A stretch of DNA of 5,285 nt, taken from IMG/VR virus record IMGVR_UViG_3300014523_000071; one strand, written 5' to 3'. Under the pieces are notes generated by a model. That model had not been told where the DNA came from and did not search any database. It worked only from the letters and a program-made list of their open reading frames with translations. Shown in pieces: positions 1-5,285 of this stretch. This DNA comes from a virus. Taxonomy: Duplodnaviria > Heunggongvirae > Uroviricota > Caudoviricetes. Within the stretch, counting starts at the first letter, position 1; each line of letters begins with the position of its first letter. Both the position numbers and the translations under genes were made by a program.

Positions 1-1836
1 TTCTGCTGTAATTTGGCTTGAAAGTATAGGGCGTATCGCATTTGCAGCATTATTTAGCGCTCTTTCATAGGCTGGTGTTCCTGCTTTGGTGTTTGCCAAA
101 CGTAAGAGAGCATTCCTTGCTGCTTTTGACTCATACAAGCGCATCATTGCACCGAAACCAGCCTCAAGCCCCATTGATACGCCAAGAGTCGCAGTTGCGC
201 CAATCGTCCTTATCCTGTTGGCTTGCGATTGCCCCGTCTGAGTTACTACATTTGCGGTGTCTGACCTTGCTGTTTGCTGTAGAACTTCATGAAGAGAATC
301 AAGCTCTTTCATGTGCTTTCCAGAAAAAATAGTGTTGTAAATTTCACCGCCTGACTGAGATTTCAGCTTATTAACTTCAGTGATGAACTTGGCTGGAGAG
401 TCCCCGGCCTTTTCCGCTATTTTGCTGACGTAAGCTGCACGCATAGCATCTTTCCCCTTATCATCCAGTGCGCTCCAGATTCGTTTCACGTCAGATGGTT
501 TTCTGCTTAATACAACGGTATTTATAAGTTCAGGACTGGCTTCACTGCTTGCCTTGTTGAGCTTGTTGGCAATGTTTTTATTAAGCACCTTATTATAAAC
601 GTTTGCATAATCGGAATTTGCTTTAAGGTATTTTGCTGCGTCTGATGCACCGAGGTTTTTAGCAACTGCGTTACGAAGGTCTTTTGACATTGCATTCTCT
701 ACCATATTGGTAGCTGCTTTTGCCTGGTTGGGGAAGACCATAGCATCTCCCTGAACATTAGATCTAAATGCTGTTCTGTGCTGACGCAAGAGATCAAACG
801 TAACATCCAAATCAGTTGCAGGGTTTGCTAATTCTTCACGTAGGTTACGCAAGGATGTAAGCAGGCTTTGATTGGCAGACGTCCCAAGCCGTTCCTGTCT
901 TGCGATCGCTGTATTCAGAGCATTCATGGTATTTGTTGTATCAACTGCGGCATTACCCATTTTATTGGTGACGTCATTGATAACAGCGCCAGCGGCATCC
1001 TTCCGTCCCCTTAACGTGGTGGTCAGAGATTTCACCACATCATCAGGGTTGTACTCACCAAAACGGTCAAAATAATTACTTACCAGTTTACTACGCGTTG
1101 CATATTGCTCCGCTCGCTTTGATCCTGTCCCGAGCAAAGCCCCCTCGGCATCCTGAGTAAGGCCGCGAGTGAAAGCATTTTTCGGCGGGATAACATCAGA
1201 TGTCATTGGTGTCACGCCCATCGATTCTGATGTGGCAATTTTCTTCGCCACTTCTGGCGCAATATCACCTTTTATAGCCGTTATTCCACGCCCTATTCCC
1301 TTTGCTGCTGCGGAAAGAACACCCTGAGCGGCAAGGTTAACTCCGGCATTTTTAGCTGCATTTTGTGCGAAATCGCCTTTCTGATTTGCGGCCTCTGCCA
1401 GTGAGCCAATAGCCATGCTTCCTGCCGTTCCAACTCCTGGAACTAAATACCCGCCAATTGTTTCTCCAGCTTGCGCATAAGGGTCTGTCGGTCGATTGAC
1501 TGGACGATAGACATCATCCAATACTTTTGGCCCACCAAGCCCCTGACTGATTGCATTAATCAGACTTGCGCCACCCTGCAATACGTCAAATGGTATGTTT
1601 ACCAGACCACGACCAGCCTGTTCTGCAATTTGCCCTGCACTTTGACCACCAGTGAGCCAATCGCCAGCTTGTTGCATCAATGATGGTTCTTCCCGTGTTG
1701 GTGCATTATTGGCCTGATTAACTGTTTGTTGCTGAACAGCCTGACCAGCAAAATACTCATCAATGGCGGTGCCAATATCTTCGGTGCTCGTACCATCAGG
1801 AAAGGTAAATGTCTTACCGTTTGCAGTTACTTTCAT
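1..1836 (-). CDS. Large phage virion-associated protein (tape-measure-like or DNA-ejection/internal-protein-like), partial; 3' end lies beyond the left window edge, 612 codons in window
   Basis: I checked every plus-strand triplet from position 1 to 1836 in this register and found no tta/cta/tca, so the minus frame is open throughout. Start ATG is at 1836-1834 and overlaps the upstream gene's stop (minus-strand TGATG). N-terminus reads [31 protein letters not shown]; the protein is Ala/Gly-rich. Plus-strand ORFs across this span are all under 100 aa. Family assignment is inference only. Confidence 0.8.
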
Positions 1837-2828
1837 CATTCCACCGTAAATTGAATGCCTGATTTTGAGGTATATGATCCGGATTGACTCTGCTGCTGTT
1901 GGGTATTTGTCGGTTGTTGGTTATTGCTCTGTTGTTGACTATTTGCAGCACTTGAAACCACCAAAGCATCATAAACGCGACCAGACTGACCACGTAATGA
2001 GTTATATTGGCCCTGCATTTTTCGCATTTTTGTTTCAGTAGCAGCCTTGGAATCACCAGGCTGAGGCAGGTACATTTTGGAATACTCCTGCATCTCTGGC
2101 AGAGTAATTGCTGCACCTGTTTCTGGGCGCAAAATTGCATACAAGGCGTCTCTCGCATTTACCATATATTGCTGCTCCGCTGGTGATAGGCTTAAATTTG
2201 CAATAGTCCCATCACCAAGAGAGCGATTTATTAATGCAACTCGCTTAGGGTCAATGCTTTTACTAAGCTGATTCATTGAGTCCATTGAATCTTTTAATCG
2301 CAAAGCAAATCCTGCCGCCTTCTTGGAACCCTCATTAGCCTTATCTATGATGCTTTGCGCTTGTGGCAAACTAATTGGTTTAATGCCATCACCAGATATA
2401 GGTTGGTTTAGTTTTCCGGCTTCCTCGCTGCCATCGGTGTAATACTTAGTTACCGAGCCATCAGGATTGGTTTCAACCTTAAGTAATTTCTTAGCATTGG
2501 GATTAATTCCCGCCGCTGCCGCAAATGCCGCTGCACCATCTGGATCCGCCTTTAACATTTGCGCGTACTGATTGTAATTCTGCATTGCGACTGTTGGTGC
2601 ATATGCTGACGTTAACGCATTTGCTCGGCTAATATCCTGCCCTCTCGCCTGAAGTGCCTCGCCAGCCTGATTGCTGCGGATTGTCTCTGCCAGTCTGCCT
2701 CGGTCAATCTCACGACCAGCCATCTTGTCCTGAACAGCAAACGCCTTTTCTGGTCCAAGCGCACCGAGAGACATAGTAGTCAGCATGTGTGATAGCTGCT
2801 CTGGATTCTGGATACCTGTCTGAATCAT
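1836..2828 (-). CDS. Phage virion-associated protein with Gln-rich low-complexity C-terminus; probably a 5'-truncated remnant (frame stays open to 2942 with no start codon)
   Basis: 330-codon minus-strand ORF ending in TGA at 1838-1836, coupled to the downstream gene. No Shine-Dalgarno precedes the ATG at 2828. The same frame continues upstream as [38 protein letters not shown] with no ATG/GTG/TTG until a stop at 2945-2943. C-terminal tail is Q/N/S/T-rich ([19 protein letters not shown]). Confidence 0.7.
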
Positions 2829-2942
2829 CCAGTCAGCATTAGCACCAACGCGATTTAACCTGTCCTTGTTGTCAGTAATGAATTTACTGTAGGCTTCCGG
2901 TCCCTGAGAAAGAGCGACGTTACCGTAATAGTCCCCTGTCGG

Positions 2943-3215
2943 TTAGGGAAGCTGCGTGTTGAGCTGGAAGCAACAGAGAACAACCTCATTGATAGTGAAT
3001 GCCATGTTGCTGAACTGGAAGAAGCACTACGCGACAAGCAGGCGTTACTTGAAGCCTCAGAAAAGCGCATAGCAGAACAAAGCTCGATTGTTACAGCCGC
3101 TGAAAAACTGGTTCGCTGTAAAGGCCGCTATCACAGTGAGCAAAACTATCGTGCGCTGGCTGCATTGTTTGGCGTAACAGTGCCGGATTTACCACCACTG
3201 CAAGCAGATGATTAA
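2943..3215 (+). pseudogene. 5'-truncated fragment of an Ea22-like coiled-coil early-left-operon protein (C-terminal ~90 codons, no start codon)
   Basis: Plus frame is open from 2859 to TAA at 3213-3215 with no in-frame ATG. Translation LGKLRVELEATENNLIDSECHVAELEEALRDKQALLEASEKRIAEQ... is heptad-like. The GKLRVELE and KRIA motifs match what I recall of phage lambda Ea22 (memory only, not searched). It ends 10 nt before the SD and ATG of the next gene. Confidence 0.45.
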
Positions 3216-3225
3216 GGACTAACCT

Positions 3226-3798
3226 ATGACCACTATTACCAAAGAGCGACTACTGACAATCAAGCAGTGGCGCGAAACATACGGACCTGGTAGCAACGTT
3301 GTACTGCCAGCAGAAGAAGCGGAAGAACTGGCACGAATTGCTCTGGCATCGCTGGAAGCAGAACCTGTAAGCCAAACTTACAACTTGCCACAAACGCACT
3401 TTGAACAGGTTGCTGACCTTTACGAAATGCAATTTGATGACGGACGCACTTGTGCCTTTCATACTGATGCACAAAAGGCTGCGCAATGGCTTCGGGCATG
3501 CGACGGAAACAGGGTTCAGGAATACGTGAAACTGGAGCGACTGCAGAACGCGCTATCGGGCAACTCTCCGGTAATTCCGGATAGTTGGATAAGCTGTAGT
3601 GAGCGAATGCCGGAAAAGAATCAGAACGTGCTTATTTCGGTGAATTTCGATAGCTCTCTGGTTGAACCGCTAATATGCTCCGCACGCTATACCGGAAGCA
3701 CCTTTCGGCGCGGAGATGCAACGATTAAGCCGGGTAATGGTATTGAGCAAGCAACTCACTGGATTCCGCTACCGGAACCGCCGCAGGAGGCGAAATGA
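3226..3798 (+). CDS. DUF551-like phage protein (variable N-terminal domain plus C-terminal DUF551-type domain)
   Basis: 190-aa ORF with SD AAGGA 7 nt upstream of ATG 3226. C-terminal region WISCSERMPEKNQNVLISV...ATHWIPLPEPPQEAK fits the DUF551 signature as I recall it (W-I-x-x-x-E-R-x-P-E ... T-H-W-x-P-L-P-E-P-P). Stop TGA overlaps the next start (ATGA). Confidence 0.8.
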   Translation: MTTITKERLLTIKQWRETYGPGSNVVLPAEEAEELARIALASLEAEPVSQTYNLPQTHFEQVADLYEMQFDDGRTCAFHTDAQKAAQWLRACDGNRVQEYVKLERLQNALSGNSPVIPDSWISCSERMPEKNQNVLISVNFDSSLVEPLICSARYTGSTFRRGDATIKPGNGIEQATHWIPLPEPPQEAK

Positions 3799-4052
3799 TG
3801 GATGTAAAAGAGAAGGTTTTGCAGGTGATGCGTTCCCGGGCTGCCCTGCAAGATAAAGCTCTCGGCGGGGAATATCCATTCAGAATGGCAACCTGGAATT
3901 TGCGGTTGGCAATGGAGAAGGAATTTCCTGATGAAGAATGGCGTTCGGCAGATTTGCGCAAAATTCTTATGGAGANNNNNNNNNNNNNNNNNNNNNNNNN
4001 NNNNCATGCCAGCCGGATTGGTCAGGCGGTATGGAGACTGGAGGTGCGGTAA
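3795..4052 (+). CDS. Hypothetical small phage protein, interrupted by a 29-nt N run
   Basis: ATG at 3795 and 3798 preceded by GGAGG at 3786-3790. It overlaps the stop of the upstream gene and its own TAA overlaps the next ATG (TAATG at 4050-4054). The frame is maintained across the N block if the N count equals the true length. No family recognised. Confidence 0.65.
   Translation: MMDVKEKVLQVMRSRAALQDKALGGEYPFRMATWNLRLAMEKEFPDEEWRSADLRKILMEXXXXXXXXXXHASRIGQAVWRLEVR
3976..4004. other. Run of 29 N (assembly gap or masked bases) inside a CDS
   Basis: Directly visible in the sequence. Confidence 0.99.
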
Positions 4053-4333
4053 TGGCTAACCTGCAACTTGCCGTCAAAGGTGAATACTTCGATGCCATGA
4101 TTCGCGGAGATAAAACGGAAGAGTATCGCCTGTGTAATGACTACTGGAATAAGCGAATTATGTTCCGGGAATATGACCGCCTGATTATCACAAAGGGATA
4201 TCCGAAGCGCGACGACTCCAGTCGCAGAATTGATGTTCCGTATGGAGGATATGAAGTGAAAACAATCACACACCCCCACTTCGGTGATAAGCCGGTAAAG
4301 GTATACGCGATAAAGGTGAATATCAATTGCTAA
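4052..4333 (+). CDS. ASCH-domain-like (PUA-fold) small protein, 93 aa
   Basis: Strong SD GGAGGTG at 4040-4046, 7 nt before ATG 4052. N-terminal LAVKGEYFDAMIRGDKTEEYR contains the GxKxxExR motif characteristic of ASCH domains, in the usual N-terminal position, and the size is right for an ASCH fold. I placed the start at 4052 rather than the track's 3938 because of the SD and the TAATG coupling. Confidence 0.8.
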   Translation: MANLQLAVKGEYFDAMIRGDKTEEYRLCNDYWNKRIMFREYDRLIITKGYPKRDDSSRRIDVPYGGYEVKTITHPHFGDKPVKVYAIKVNINC

Positions 4334-4349
4334 ATTAGTGGCATAGCAT

Positions 4350-4388
4350 AAAGATGCTTGCATTAATGAAGTGTGTATAATAACGCCT
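4350..4388 (+). promoter_or_regulatory. Candidate sigma70 extended -10 promoter (TGTGTATAAT) for the downstream small ORF
   Basis: Perfect TATAAT at 4376-4381 immediately preceded by TG at 4374-4375, in an AT-rich intergenic region. There is no good -35 at 17-bp spacing. The palindrome CATTAATG at 4361-4368 lies just upstream. Confidence 0.45.
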
Positions 4389-4444
4389 CATCAATTGTAA
4401 ACTACTGAAATAGCAAAAAATGCATATTAAAGAGGATTCGAAAA

Positions 4445-4636
4445 TTGAAAATGTTCATGCAAATAGACAGACGCATAGATCTTAATGGCAATTCATACTT
4501 AGTTAGATGCGAAGAGAGGCCTAACGGTGAGTGGCGTGTATATGATATTGACCGTAAGATCAATATCAGCACCATGAACAAAGACACTGCCTTTGATGAA
4601 TGGAAAGCTGAAGCTAAAAAACAACATAATTCGTAG
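4445..4636 (+). CDS. Small hypothetical protein (61-63 aa)
   Basis: SD AGAGGA at 4431-4436. Start is either TTG 4445 (8-nt spacing) or ATG 4451; stop TAG at 4634-4636. Translation MFMQIDRRIDLNGNSYLVRCEERPNGEWRVYDIDRK... matches no family I recognise. Local sequence is noticeably AT-rich relative to its flanks. Confidence 0.6.
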   Translation: MKMFMQIDRRIDLNGNSYLVRCEERPNGEWRVYDIDRKINISTMNKDTAFDEWKAEAKKQHNS

Positions 4637-4678
4637 AATTACAAAAACCCTAACCAATTGATGGATTTCTTTTATCTG

Positions 4679-4703
4679 AACTCGCTACAGCGAGTTTTGT
4701 TTT
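4679..4703 (+). terminator. Candidate rho-independent terminator or attenuator hairpin
   Basis: 7-bp stem AACTCGC / GCGAGTT (4679-4685 with 4690-4696), loop TACA, followed by TTTGTTTT. The T tract runs directly into the SD and start of the next gene, so read-through is plausible. Confidence 0.5.
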
Positions 4704-4715
4704 ATGGAGATGATT

Positions 4716-5015
4716 ATGGCCTGTTCAACATTCAACCCTCTAACGTTACAGAAATACCAGCCAGCCCCTGAAGATTTATGCTCACTGTGTGGCGGAAATC
4801 ATGGTAAAGCCGCCATGATTGAATGTAAGGACAAAATCCACATTTGCCTTAATTGCGTTGATGTCCTCGTTGATATCAAAAATGAGAGAGAAGATAAAAA
4901 GCGTAGCGAGGCTGTTCGAGCCTTAGATTCATGGATGCGAGATGGGTATAGTGCCGCGCAAATTTATGACTTAGCAATATCAAAAGGCGAAATACCAGGA
5001 GTGCGCATCGAATAA
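4716..5015 (+). CDS. Small Cys4 zinc-ribbon protein (CxxC...CxxC) with helical C-terminal half
   Basis: SD GGAGA at 4706-4710, 5 nt before ATG 4716 (the track's 4704 start is in the same frame). Contains CSLCGG and, 18 residues later, CLNCVD, which is typical zinc-ribbon spacing. Flanked by hairpin terminators on both sides. Confidence 0.7.
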   Translation: MACSTFNPLTLQKYQPAPEDLCSLCGGNHGKAAMIECKDKIHICLNCVDVLVDIKNEREDKKRSEAVRALDSWMRDGYSAAQIYDLAISKGEIPGVRIE

Positions 5016-5052
5016 GACGTAACCAATATTTGTATTGAAGAACTGAAAGAAC

Positions 5053-5079
5053 AAGCCGCCTGATGGCGGTTTATTTTTG
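5053..5079 (+). terminator. Rho-independent terminator
   Basis: 8-bp stem AAGCCGCC / GGCGGTTT (one G-U pair), loop TGAT, followed by ATTTTTG; about 40 nt after the stop of the zinc-ribbon CDS. Confidence 0.6.
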
Positions 5080-5093
5080 CCTGGAGAATTAAG

Positions 5094-5285
5094 ATGACCG
5101 ATACCAGCCTGATTCCTGAGAAAGAAGTGATGAACAAGCTCGGTGTTTCATCACGTCAGACAATCTGGAACTATACCAAACGGCACGGATTTCCGAAGCC
5201 AGTCAGAACCCACCCCAAATCATACCTTCGTGAAGCTGTTGAGGGGTGGATTCTTAACGGTGGCGTTAATCAGAAATGCTCCTGA
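5094..5285 (+). CDS. AlpA/Xis-family (excisionase-like) HTH DNA-binding protein
   Basis: SD GGAGA at 5083-5087, 6 nt before ATG 5094. The 63-aa product fits the Phage_AlpA / excisionase HTH pattern (EVMNKLGVSSRQTIWNYTKRHGFPKP...SYLREAVEGWI). Stop TGA is the last codon of the window. Confidence 0.8.
   Translation: MTDTSLIPEKEVMNKLGVSSRQTIWNYTKRHGFPKPVRTHPKSYLREAVEGWILNGGVNQKCS

What the first reader, a model, noticed from the sequence alone, without database searches (positions are those of the whole stretch)
2829..2945. Head-to-head junction of two 5'-truncated genes: likely deletion scar of a cryptic prophage
A minus-strand virion-type gene and a plus-strand Ea22-like gene both lose their N-terminal coding sequence at the same point, near 2940. 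There is no intergenic DNA, no promoter and no start codon on either side, and both frames are open across 2859-2942. In a lambdoid prophage this is the expected product of a deletion removing everything between a virion gene and the distal part of the early-left operon (immunity, replication, lysis and head genes). The remaining element would be defective but keeps the accessory genes next to xis/int. The window contains an N run, so an assembly chimera is the main alternative.
Basis: partly seen in the sequence, partly recalled or inferred. Interest (0 to 1): 0.6.

Follow-up and report, generated by a model that had tools for sequence, protein, structure and literature searches.

The report
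Deletion scar in defective P22-like prophage
This is a genuine, inherited deletion scar in a decayed P22-like prophage of E. coli, where about 27 kb of phage genes were lost and only a 25-base crumb of the coat gene remains between two truncated genes; it is ordinary prophage decay, not an assembly error.

Summary
On the minus strand, 1836-2922 encodes residues 131-491 of a 491-aa P22 gp20-type DNA-ejection protein. On the plus strand, 2944-3215 encodes residues 99-187 of a 187-aa Ea22-like protein. The two do not meet at one point. Between them, 2921-2945 (TACCGTAATAGTCCCCTGTCGGTTA) is an exact, collinear, same-orientation piece of the P22-type coat gene. So there are two breakpoints about 21 nt apart, each with a 2-nt TA microhomology. 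Measured on an intact relative, about 4.8 kb and about 22 kb are missing.

It is not a misassembly. The identical junction occurs in four other assemblies from at least three sample sets, and none of the three that overlap the variable positions is identical to the window. The N run is 1 kb away and simply hides 32 nt of an ordinary ORF.

The remnant lies beside sbcB in E. coli. It keeps gtr, tailspike, gp16, early-left accessory genes, xis and int. No complete E. coli genome (0 of 5,426) carries the scar. One metagenome contig carries the same scar joined to a TorI/argW-type attR next to dsdC.

This is a new instance of a well-known kind, and interest is low.

The parts
1..1836 (-). P22 gp16-type DNA-ejection protein gene. 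It is intact (614 aa in L112). Its last codons and stop lie 9 nt beyond the left end of the window.
   Evidence: Translation. Called as a 614-aa PF26808 Phage_P22_gp16 gene in L112 6069..7913. The window maps to L112 6078 onward.
1836..2922 (-). 5'-truncated P22 gp20-type ejection ('DNA transfer') protein gene. It holds codons 131-491 plus the stop. The first 130 codons, the ribosome-binding site and the late-operon promoter are gone.
   Evidence: 357/361 identical to residues 131-491 of the 491-aa PK8217 protein. Pfam PF16928 matches only model positions 120-217 of 218. DNA homology ends at 2922.
2921..2922 (.). Junction 1 (gp20 x coat): the TA dinucleotide shared by both parent sequences.
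   Evidence: Alignment of the window with its gp20, coat and Ea22 parents. gp20 parent ...GACGTTA|GCCC; coat parent ...GCAGATA|CCGT.
2921..2945 (-). 25-nt island TACCGTAATAGTCCCCTGTCGGTTA, an exact fragment of a P22-type coat (gp5) gene (codons about 249-257, 'DNRQGTITV'). It has the same orientation as gp20 and the same order as in an intact prophage. 21 nt (2923-2943) belong to the coat gene only.
   Evidence: The central 20-mer occurs in 100 IMG/VR stretches, all in one coat-gene context among those fetched. The exact 25-mer lies in the coat gene of the related remnant at the same locus, L108 16734. The only hit in the genome collection is a chance match in a Verrucomicrobiae MAG.
2944..2945 (.). 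Junction 2 (coat x ea22): the TA dinucleotide shared by both parents, with imperfect CGGT(T)A homology.
   Evidence: Coat parent ...TGTCGGTTA|TCAAC; Ea22 parent (L113) ...CTAACGGTA|GGGAAG.
2944..3215 (+). 5'-truncated Ea22-like gene: codons 99-187 plus the stop of a 187-aa protein. It has no usable start codon, so it is a pseudogene fragment.
   Evidence: Identical to the C-terminal part of L113 4931..5494. 88% identical over 49 aa to Ea22 of phage PhiR49_2. Homologues are annotated 'ead/Ea22-like family protein'. No in-frame start before 3165.
3226..3798 (+). DUF551 gene (190 aa), the first intact gene of the retained early-left accessory arm.
   Evidence: Pfam PF04448, 73.5 bits. The identical protein sits in an undeleted context in L113.
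3795..5015 (+). Four small phage accessory ORFs of unknown function. They are 86 aa (3795-4055, interrupted by the N run 3976-4004), 93 aa ASCH-like (4052-4333), 61 aa (4451-4636) and 99 aa (4716-5015).
   Evidence: Gene calls in L112. PHROG families 2814, 625, 16329 and 3680, all of unknown function. 'ASCH domain-containing protein' is the annotation on homologues.
5094..5285 (+). AlpA-like excisionase/HTH gene (63 aa). In L107 it is followed by a convergent, 20-nt overlapping tyrosine integrase and then sbcB.
   Evidence: phrog_66 'excisionase and transcriptional regulator'. Integrase in L107 at 6661..7839 on the minus strand, with PF13356 and PF00589. sbcB flank.

Best explanation
The junction is the scar of a large internal deletion in a P22-like (lambdoid) prophage of E. 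coli.

In window orientation, an intact prophage would read: gtrABC - tailspike - immI-region ORFs - gp16 - gp20 - gp7 - gp14 - gp26 - gp10 - gp4 - coat - scaffold - portal - terminase - lysis - Q/nin - replication - immunity - early-left operon - Ea22 - DUF551 - accessory ORFs - xis - int - sbcB.

Two collinear stretches are missing.
- About 4.8 kb, from gp20 codon 130 to coat codon about 257.
- About 22 kb, from coat codon about 249 to Ea22 codon 98.
- A 25-nt coat-gene island sits between two junctions, each with a 2-nt (TA) microhomology.

This much is shown: both truncations, the identity and orientation of the island, the missing content, and inheritance of the scar in several non-identical assemblies.

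The following is inferred.
- The joins arose by homology-independent (illegitimate, microhomology-level) recombination.
- They most likely arose in one complex event, about 0.6. This would be a nascent strand or broken end that jumped forward twice and copied about 21 nt at the intermediate stop (serial template switching or alternative end-joining with a templated patch). Two unrelated deletions would be unlikely to stop 21 nt apart.
- The result is a roughly 12-kb element that cannot replicate, lyse or package. It has lost pL, pR and the late promoter region, so gp20', gp16 and Ea22' are probably silent relics.
- The gtr genes, tailspike, a lipoprotein-like ORF, the accessory ORFs and xis/int remain intact.
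For: - **Truncated genes against full-length parents:**
- **Breakpoints:**
- **Coat origin of the 25-mer:**. The chance that a random 21-mer matches a 40-kb phage genome is about 2e-8 (my arithmetic).
- **Collinearity and orientation:** coat and tailspike are on the same strand and in the same order in L108 and L110.
- **Size of the loss:** gp20 breakpoint at L110 20523 and coat island at L110 25354-25378, giving 4.83 kb. The coat island to the Ea22-like gene in the same PK8217 prophage is about 22 kb.
- **Real rather than artefact:** the identical 36-nt junction string is in OAXB01000008.1 (= ERZ1745575 NODE_8, 212 kb, seen in 2 samples), in two different assemblies of run ERR526085 (a k127 contig and a Logan contig), and in ERZ27239737 k119_8067. 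The three contigs that overlap the variable positions differ from the window by clustered SNPs in gp16, by one SNP and by a 3-nt indel. The Logan contig is 100% identical over its span.
- **Defective content:** L112 has only gtrB, gtrC, tailspike, small ORFs, gp16, gp20', accessory ORFs, xis and int before sbcB.
- **Intact relatives with the same xis/int module at sbcB:** 557 complete genomes, for example the Stx1a prophage of strain 2013C-4974 with the full early-left operon upstream of Ea22-DUF551.
- **Microhomology:** at least 2 nt at both junctions has probability about 0.024 under random joining.
Against: - No read-level data were available, so contiguity rests on concordant assemblies.
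- Two of the four other assemblies come from one sequencing run.
- The single-event claim has no direct support. It rests on the improbability of two independent endpoints 21 nt apart and on the absence of half-junction intermediates in 5,426 complete E. coli genomes and in IMG/VR. That absence is weak evidence, because the full scar is also missing from those collections.
- Silence of the truncated genes is inferred only from a consensus promoter scan.
- The left chromosomal flank was never seen in a scar-bearing contig. L112 starts inside the gtr genes. dacD is seen only in the related remnant L108.
Confidence: 0.88

Rival explanations
1. Same scar, but made by two independent, sequential simple deletions whose endpoints happened to leave 25 nt of the coat gene. 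For example, an early-left-to-coat deletion came first and a gp20-to-coat deletion came later.
For: Prophage remnants often accumulate several deletions. The related remnant at the same locus in strain 160-11H1 has at least two separate internal deletions, shown by a truncated gp10 and a truncated scaffold gene. The island is collinear and in its native orientation, which two plain deletions would also produce.
Against: The second deletion would have to end within about 21 nt of the first junction without crossing it. I estimate this at under 1% for endpoints spread over several kb. No single-junction intermediate was found in 5,426 complete E. coli genomes or in IMG/VR.
Confidence: 0.33
2. 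Assembly chimera: two unrelated contig ends, or a collapsed repeat, were joined by the assembler, as the N run might suggest.
For: The window is a scaffold with a 29-N gap. No complete E. coli genome contains the junction.
Against: The identical junction is in four other assemblies from different pipelines (a SPAdes-style NODE contig, k127 and k119 contigs, and Logan) and at least three sample sets. Three of these contigs differ from the window elsewhere in sequence. The joins share only 2 nt, too little for a k-mer graph to bridge by mistake. The Logan contig runs straight through the junction for 2.5 kb. The N run is 1 kb away and corresponds to 32 nt of ordinary sequence in the other assemblies.
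Confidence: 0.02
3. The 330-aa ORF (M2828) is a complete, functional, naturally short gp20 variant, and the plus-strand segment is non-coding spacer, so no deletion occurred.
For: An ATG at 2828 gives an uninterrupted 330-aa ORF. Gene callers annotate 316- or 330-aa products.
Against: Homology to full-length gp20 continues 31 codons upstream of M2828, up to the breakpoint. The Pfam model is entered at position 120 of 218. gp7, gp14 and the rest of the upstream operon are absent, and a coat-gene fragment abuts the ORF. The plus-strand segment is codon-for-codon identical to the C-terminus of a 187-aa Ea22-like ORF.
Confidence: 0.02

Closest known systems
Cryptic or defective lambdoid prophages of E. 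coli (e.g. KplE1/CPS-53, Rac, DLP12, Qin)
   Same: An integrated phage remnant that has lost its replication, lysis and morphogenesis modules by internal deletion. It keeps its integrase/excisionase module and accessory ('moron') genes. KplE1 is likewise a roughly 10-kb P22/Sf6-type remnant (PMC2951348). That KplE1 also carries gtr genes is my own knowledge.
   Different: Different integration site (beside sbcB), different breakpoints and a different set of retained genes (gp16, gp20', tailspike). The retained genes are still 96-99% identical to those of intact phages, so the scar looks young.
Intact P22-like prophages of E. coli (e.g. the PK8217 prophage at ybhB/ybhC; phages P22, Sf6, HK620)
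   Same: Same gene order 7-20-16, then immI region, then tailspike. gp20 is 99% identical at protein level. The coat gene carries the 25-mer or a close variant. The early-left arm has Ea22-like genes.
   Different: The window lacks about 27 kb between gp20 codon 131 and Ea22 codon 98.
The P22-like remnant at the dacD-sbcB site of E. coli 160-11H1
   Same: Its gtr-tailspike end (99.6%) and its xis-int-sbcB end (99.8%) are the same as in the scar-bearing contig L112, so it derives from the same or a sister prophage.
   Different: It has an independent deletion pattern. It keeps gp10', gp4, a complete coat gene and scaffold', and it has lost gp26 to gp16 and the immI region. It is not an intermediate of the window's scar.
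Complex deletions with short templated patches (serial replication slippage, FoSTeS/MMBIR, alternative end-joining)
   Same: Two junctions a few tens of nt apart, 2-nt microhomologies, and an intervening patch copied from inside the deleted interval in native orientation. The comparison itself rests on my own knowledge of these models.
   Different: These models are documented mainly in eukaryotes and in E. coli reporter assays. Nothing here shows that the event happened in one step or which enzymes acted.

Membership tests
P22 gp20 ejection protein (Pfam PF16928 Inj_translocase) | Significant match to the family model above the curated cut-off | tested here: met
   171.3 bits against a cut-off of 29.7. 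99% identity to a 491-aa family member.
P22 gp20 ejection protein (Pfam PF16928 Inj_translocase) | Full-length gene, with the N-terminal about 130 residues (model positions 1-119) present | tested here: not met
   The match covers model positions 120-217 only. The alignment starts at residue 131 of 491. It is a gene fragment, not a functional member.
P22 gp20 ejection protein (Pfam PF16928 Inj_translocase) | Position in the 7-20-16 ejection-protein operon | tested here: inconclusive
   gp16 follows directly, with overlapping stop and start. gp7 and everything upstream are deleted (compared).
ead/Ea22-like family | Sequence homology to annotated Ea22-like proteins in the early-left operon of lambdoid phages | tested here: met
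   89 of 89 C-terminal residues are identical to the 187-aa ORF of L113. 43/49 identical to Ea22 of PhiR49_2. DNA hits lie under 'ead/Ea22-like family protein' annotations.
ead/Ea22-like family | Complete ORF with a start codon | tested here: not met
   Residues 1-98 are missing, and there is no in-frame start before 3165.
Defective (cryptic) prophage | Integrated beside a known attachment site, with its own integrase | tested here: met
   Tyrosine integrase next to sbcB in L107, L112 and L115. The same module is at this site in 557 complete E. coli genomes.
Defective (cryptic) prophage | Loss of modules essential for the lytic cycle (replication, lysis, head) | tested here: met
   L112 has none of them between gtrB and int, a stretch of about 12 kb. 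Intact relatives have them.
Defective (cryptic) prophage | Unable to produce particles or excise productively | not testable with these tools
   Needs induction and plaque or PCR assays.
Assembly chimera | Junction confined to one assembly or read set | tested here: not met
   The junction is in four other assemblies from at least three sample sets.
Single-step complex deletion (template switching or templated end-joining) | Short patch between two junctions, templated from nearby sequence | tested here: met
   A 21-25-nt exact coat-gene patch from inside the deleted interval.
Single-step complex deletion (template switching or templated end-joining) | Microhomology at each junction | tested here: met
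   TA at both junctions. Joint chance about 0.024. This support is weak.
Single-step complex deletion (template switching or templated end-joining) | Both junctions formed in the same event, with no single-junction ancestor | tested here: inconclusive
   No half-junction was found in 5,426 complete E. coli genomes or in IMG/VR. The full scar is absent there too, so the test has little power.

The most novel reading that the evidence does not exclude
The scar was made in one step by two consecutive forward template switches, or by templated end-joining, inside a prophage, leaving a 21-nt 'stepping-stone' copy of the coat gene. The finished deletion allele then moved between resident prophages by homologous recombination or a prophage-prophage inversion. 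That would explain why the identical scar now sits in both an sbcB-type and an argW/TorI-type element. Prophage 'deletion alleles' would then spread horizontally among prophages, rather than each prophage decaying on its own.
Probability: 0.25. Interest if true: 0.4.

Novelty: new member of a known kind. Interest (0 to 1): 0.2.

Why it matters
The main value is as a clean negative: the odd head-to-head pair of truncated genes is real biology, not a misassembly, and it is ordinary prophage decay. Two things give it modest extra value. First, the breakpoints are resolved to the base, and the 25-nt coat-gene island is a small natural example of a two-junction (possibly one-step, template-switch-like) deletion in a bacterial chromosome. 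Second, the dacD-sbcB locus now shows at least two independent decay routes from closely related P22-like prophages, and the same scar appears with two different integration modules. That is usable material for studying how defective prophages form and recombine. No new gene family or mechanism is implied.

Tried and rejected
- **The 21 nt as a gp20 or Ea22 variant.** I first asked whether the 21 nt between the two homology blocks was a variant gp20 or Ea22 allele. This was rejected. P22 and PK8217 gp20 and three Ea22 alleles all diverge there. Apart from one chance hit in a Verrucomicrobiae MAG, every fetched occurrence of the 20-mer is inside a coat gene.
- **FRT, IS or other engineered scar.** Nothing in the sequence resembles one, and no IS element is nearby (reading).
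- **Searches for the junction or half-junctions.** Complete E. coli genomes gave no match and IMG/VR gave none.
- **A complete genome with the same accessory-gene arm.** None covers at least 80% of 2944-5285.
- **The 161-aa ORF next to gp16 as P22 SieA.** No similarity was found.
- **tRNA attachment sites.** None were found in L107 or L112-L115.
- **More scar-bearing contigs via the common 99-aa accessory protein.** This returned only unrelated lambdoid prophages at the mdtA side.
- **Literature.** A search for a described P22-like remnant at sbcB found nothing specific.

Full report
**What is at the coordinates.** On the minus strand, one reading frame is open from 2942 down to a stop at 1836-1838. 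A second gene then runs off the left edge of the window. The first product matches Pfam PF16928, the DNA/protein translocase of the phage P22 injectosome, at 171 bits. Only model positions 120-217 of 218 are matched. The product is 357/361 identical to residues 131-491 of a 491-aa 'DNA transfer protein' in an intact P22-like prophage of E. coli PK8217. The downstream gene is a P22 gp16-type ejection protein, called as a 614-aa PF26808 gene in a related contig. On the plus strand, the frame open from 2859 to 3215 is, from 2946 on, identical to residues 99-187 of a 187-aa Ea22-like ORF in contig L113. It is also 88% identical over 49 residues to Ea22 of phage PhiR49_2. That frame has no in-frame start codon before 3165.

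**The breakpoint is double, not single.** Megablast against 5,426 complete E. coli genomes splits the region into a left block ending at window 2922 and a right block starting at 2940. Alignment with full-length parents shows that gp20 homology stops after ...GACGTTA (2922). Ea22 homology resumes at TAGGGAAG (2944).

The stretch between them is not random filler. The 20-mer CCGTAATAGTCCCCTGTCGG occurs in 100 IMG/VR stretches, and in every one fetched it has the same flanks. That context is a 417-aa P22-family major capsid gene, where it encodes ...DNRQGTITV.... Including shared bases, 25 nt (2921-2945, TACCGTAATAGTCCCCTGTCGGTTA) are an exact copy. The exact 25-mer is in the coat gene of a related remnant at the same chromosomal site (L108 position 16734). 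It lies there in the same orientation and in the expected order between tailspike and the early genes. Each junction shares just TA between its two parents. Having at least 2 nt at both junctions has a chance probability of about 0.024.

**What was lost.** I used the intact PK8217 prophage as a ruler.
- The gp20 breakpoint (L110 20523) and the coat island (L110 25354-25378) are 4.83 kb apart. That interval holds the gp20 N-terminus, gp7, gp14, gp26, gp10, gp4 and the coat C-terminus.
- From the coat island to the Ea22-like gene is about 22 kb. That interval holds the coat N-terminus, scaffold, portal, terminase, lysis, Q, nin, replication, cII/cro/cI, N and most of the early-left operon.
- About 27 kb of a roughly 37.6-kb prophage is therefore gone.

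**It is not a misassembly.** The 330-aa ORF is encoded on a Logan contig of run ERR526085 that is 100% identical to window 1547-3975 and reads straight through the junction. The 36-nt junction string occurs in these assemblies:
- OAXB01000008.1, which is ENA ERZ1745575 NODE_8 (212 kb, recorded in two samples).
- A k127 contig of ERR526085, labelled PRJEB6456 human gut metagenome.
- ERZ27239737 contig k119_8067.

The three non-Logan contigs all differ from the window. All three have G for A at 4689 and a 3-nt insertion near 5052. OAXB01 also has 19 clustered substitutions in gp16, and the ERZ27239737 contig has 9 of them where it overlaps. The k127 contig starts at window 1802, to the right of those patches. 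The scar is therefore inherited by several related but non-identical genomes. The N run (3976-4004, 29 N) stands for 32 nt of normal sequence inside an 86-aa ORF, 1 kb from the junction.

**The element and its host.** In L112 the order is: gtrB, a gtrC-like gene, tailspike, three small ORFs, gp16, gp20', the scar, DUF551, four small accessory ORFs, an AlpA-like excisionase, a convergent tyrosine integrase, then sbcB-yeeD-yeeE. One of the small ORFs is a homologue of P22 ORF59a, and another is a lipoprotein-like 161-aa ORF unrelated to P22 SieA. The chromosomal flank is 99-99.8% identical to E. coli.

The same xis/int module sits next to sbcB in 557 complete E. coli genomes. In strain 2013C-4974 it belongs to an Stx1a prophage with the complete early-left operon upstream of Ea22-DUF551-ASCH. 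Strain 160-11H1 has another remnant there. Its two ends are 99.6-99.8% identical to L112, but its internal deletions are different: it keeps gp10', gp4, coat and scaffold'. The locus therefore shows independent decay routes. No complete genome carries the window's scar or either half of it, and neither does IMG/VR.

**Mechanism.**
- *Shown:* two collinear deletions with 2-nt microhomology and a 21-25-nt retained island.
- *Inferred:* illegitimate, homology-independent joining. I judge a single complex event more likely than two unrelated deletions, at about 0.6 against 0.33. This would be a strand or end that jumped forward, copied about 21 nt of the coat gene, and jumped again. An independent second deletion would have to stop within about 21 nt of the first junction without erasing it.
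- *Caveat:* this comparison with template-switch and templated end-joining models rests on my own knowledge of those models. It is not a test done here.
- *Functional consequence (inferred):* the late promoter, pL and pR are gone. No promoter-like site is enriched near the junction. gp20' lacks its N-terminus and Ea22' lacks a start codon. These are relics. Any selective value of the remnant would lie in the intact gtr, tailspike, lipoprotein-like or accessory genes.

**A side observation worth recording.** Contig L114 carries the identical scar and the same accessory arm up to the terminator-like hairpin at window 5053-5072. It then continues into a TorI-like excisionase, the 16-nt KplE1 core CTGCAGGGGACACCAT, and dsdC-dsdX-dsdA. 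That is the attR end of an argW-integrating KplE1/HK620/Sf6-type prophage (core sequence and argW site from PMC2951348). L113, at that same site, holds the undeleted Ea22 and DUF551 alleles. An identical two-junction scar cannot plausibly arise twice. So either the deletion allele was moved between prophages by homologous recombination or inversion, or the L114 contig is a metagenome chimera across shared sequence. I could not distinguish these.

**Verdict.** The interpretation, a deletion scar of a cryptic lambdoid prophage, is supported, and the chimera alternative is rejected. This is a new instance of a very well-known phenomenon, with a tidy base-level anatomy, and interest is low.

Noticed in passing
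window 3976-4004: The 29-N run replaces 32 nt (TTGCTAAAGACGGAACAGTATCTAAAGATAAC) that are present in four other assemblies. It lies inside an 86-aa accessory ORF (3795-4055) and has nothing to do with the junction.
   Followed up: yes
window 1186-1267 and 1497-1546 (gp16): All 19 differences between the window and OAXB01000008.1 across 1-3975 fall in two short patches. 18 of the 19 are synonymous. The Logan contig of ERR526085 ends exactly at 1547. This looks like gene-conversion patches from, or assembly interference by, a second gp16 copy in another P22-like prophage.
   Followed up: partly
L114 1-4100 (ERZ27239737 k119_8067); switch at window about 5070-5083: The same scar and accessory arm are joined, after a terminator-like hairpin, to a TorI-like excisionase, the KplE1 16-nt att core (L114 3996) and dsdC. 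This is an argW-type attR instead of the xis/int/sbcB end. It implies exchange or inversion between prophages, or a chimeric metagenome contig.
   Followed up: partly
L108 9400-21500 (E. coli 160-11H1, dacD-sbcB): A sister remnant has the same gtr-tailspike and xis-int ends but a different internal deletion pattern. It keeps gp10', gp4, a full coat gene and scaffold', and lacks gp26 to gp16. This is an independent decay route at the same locus.
   Followed up: partly
window 5094-5285 and L107 6489-7839: The excisionase-like gene and the integrase are convergent and overlap by 20 nt (xis on plus, int on minus). This differs from the lambda-type co-oriented xis-int pair. The same arrangement is annotated in 160-11H1 and 2013C-4974.
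   Followed up: no
L129 (E. coli 2013C-4974) 1-21500: The same xis/int module at sbcB is carried by an Stx1a-encoding lambdoid prophage. The module is therefore shared between P22-like and Stx phages.
   Followed up: no
L112 5569-6054 (just left of the window, beside gp16): A 161-aa ORF with a lipoprotein-like N-terminus (..LLLAGC..) occupies the position of sieA in P22 but shows no similarity to P22 SieA. It belongs to phrog_6067, of unknown function.
   Followed up: partly
window 2855-3070, minus strand: A 71-aa ATG ORF runs antisense through Ea22', reads the coat island in the coat gene's own frame (NRQGTITV) and ends in out-of-frame gp20. A similar antisense ORF exists in the intact Ea22 gene (L113 5071-5349), so it is probably a by-product of codon composition rather than a gene.
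   Followed up: partly
window 4678-4697 and 5053-5072: Two terminator-like hairpins with T tails follow the 61-aa and 99-aa accessory ORFs. The second coincides with the mosaic boundary where L114 switches to the TorI module. The A/G difference at 4689 lies in the loop of the first hairpin.
   Followed up: no
window 4716-5015: The 99-aa accessory protein is very widespread. It is listed in 538 index blocks, and in the places shown it sits next to a lambda-type Exc/Int module beside mdtA. This illustrates how freely these small genes move between integration modules.
   Followed up: partly
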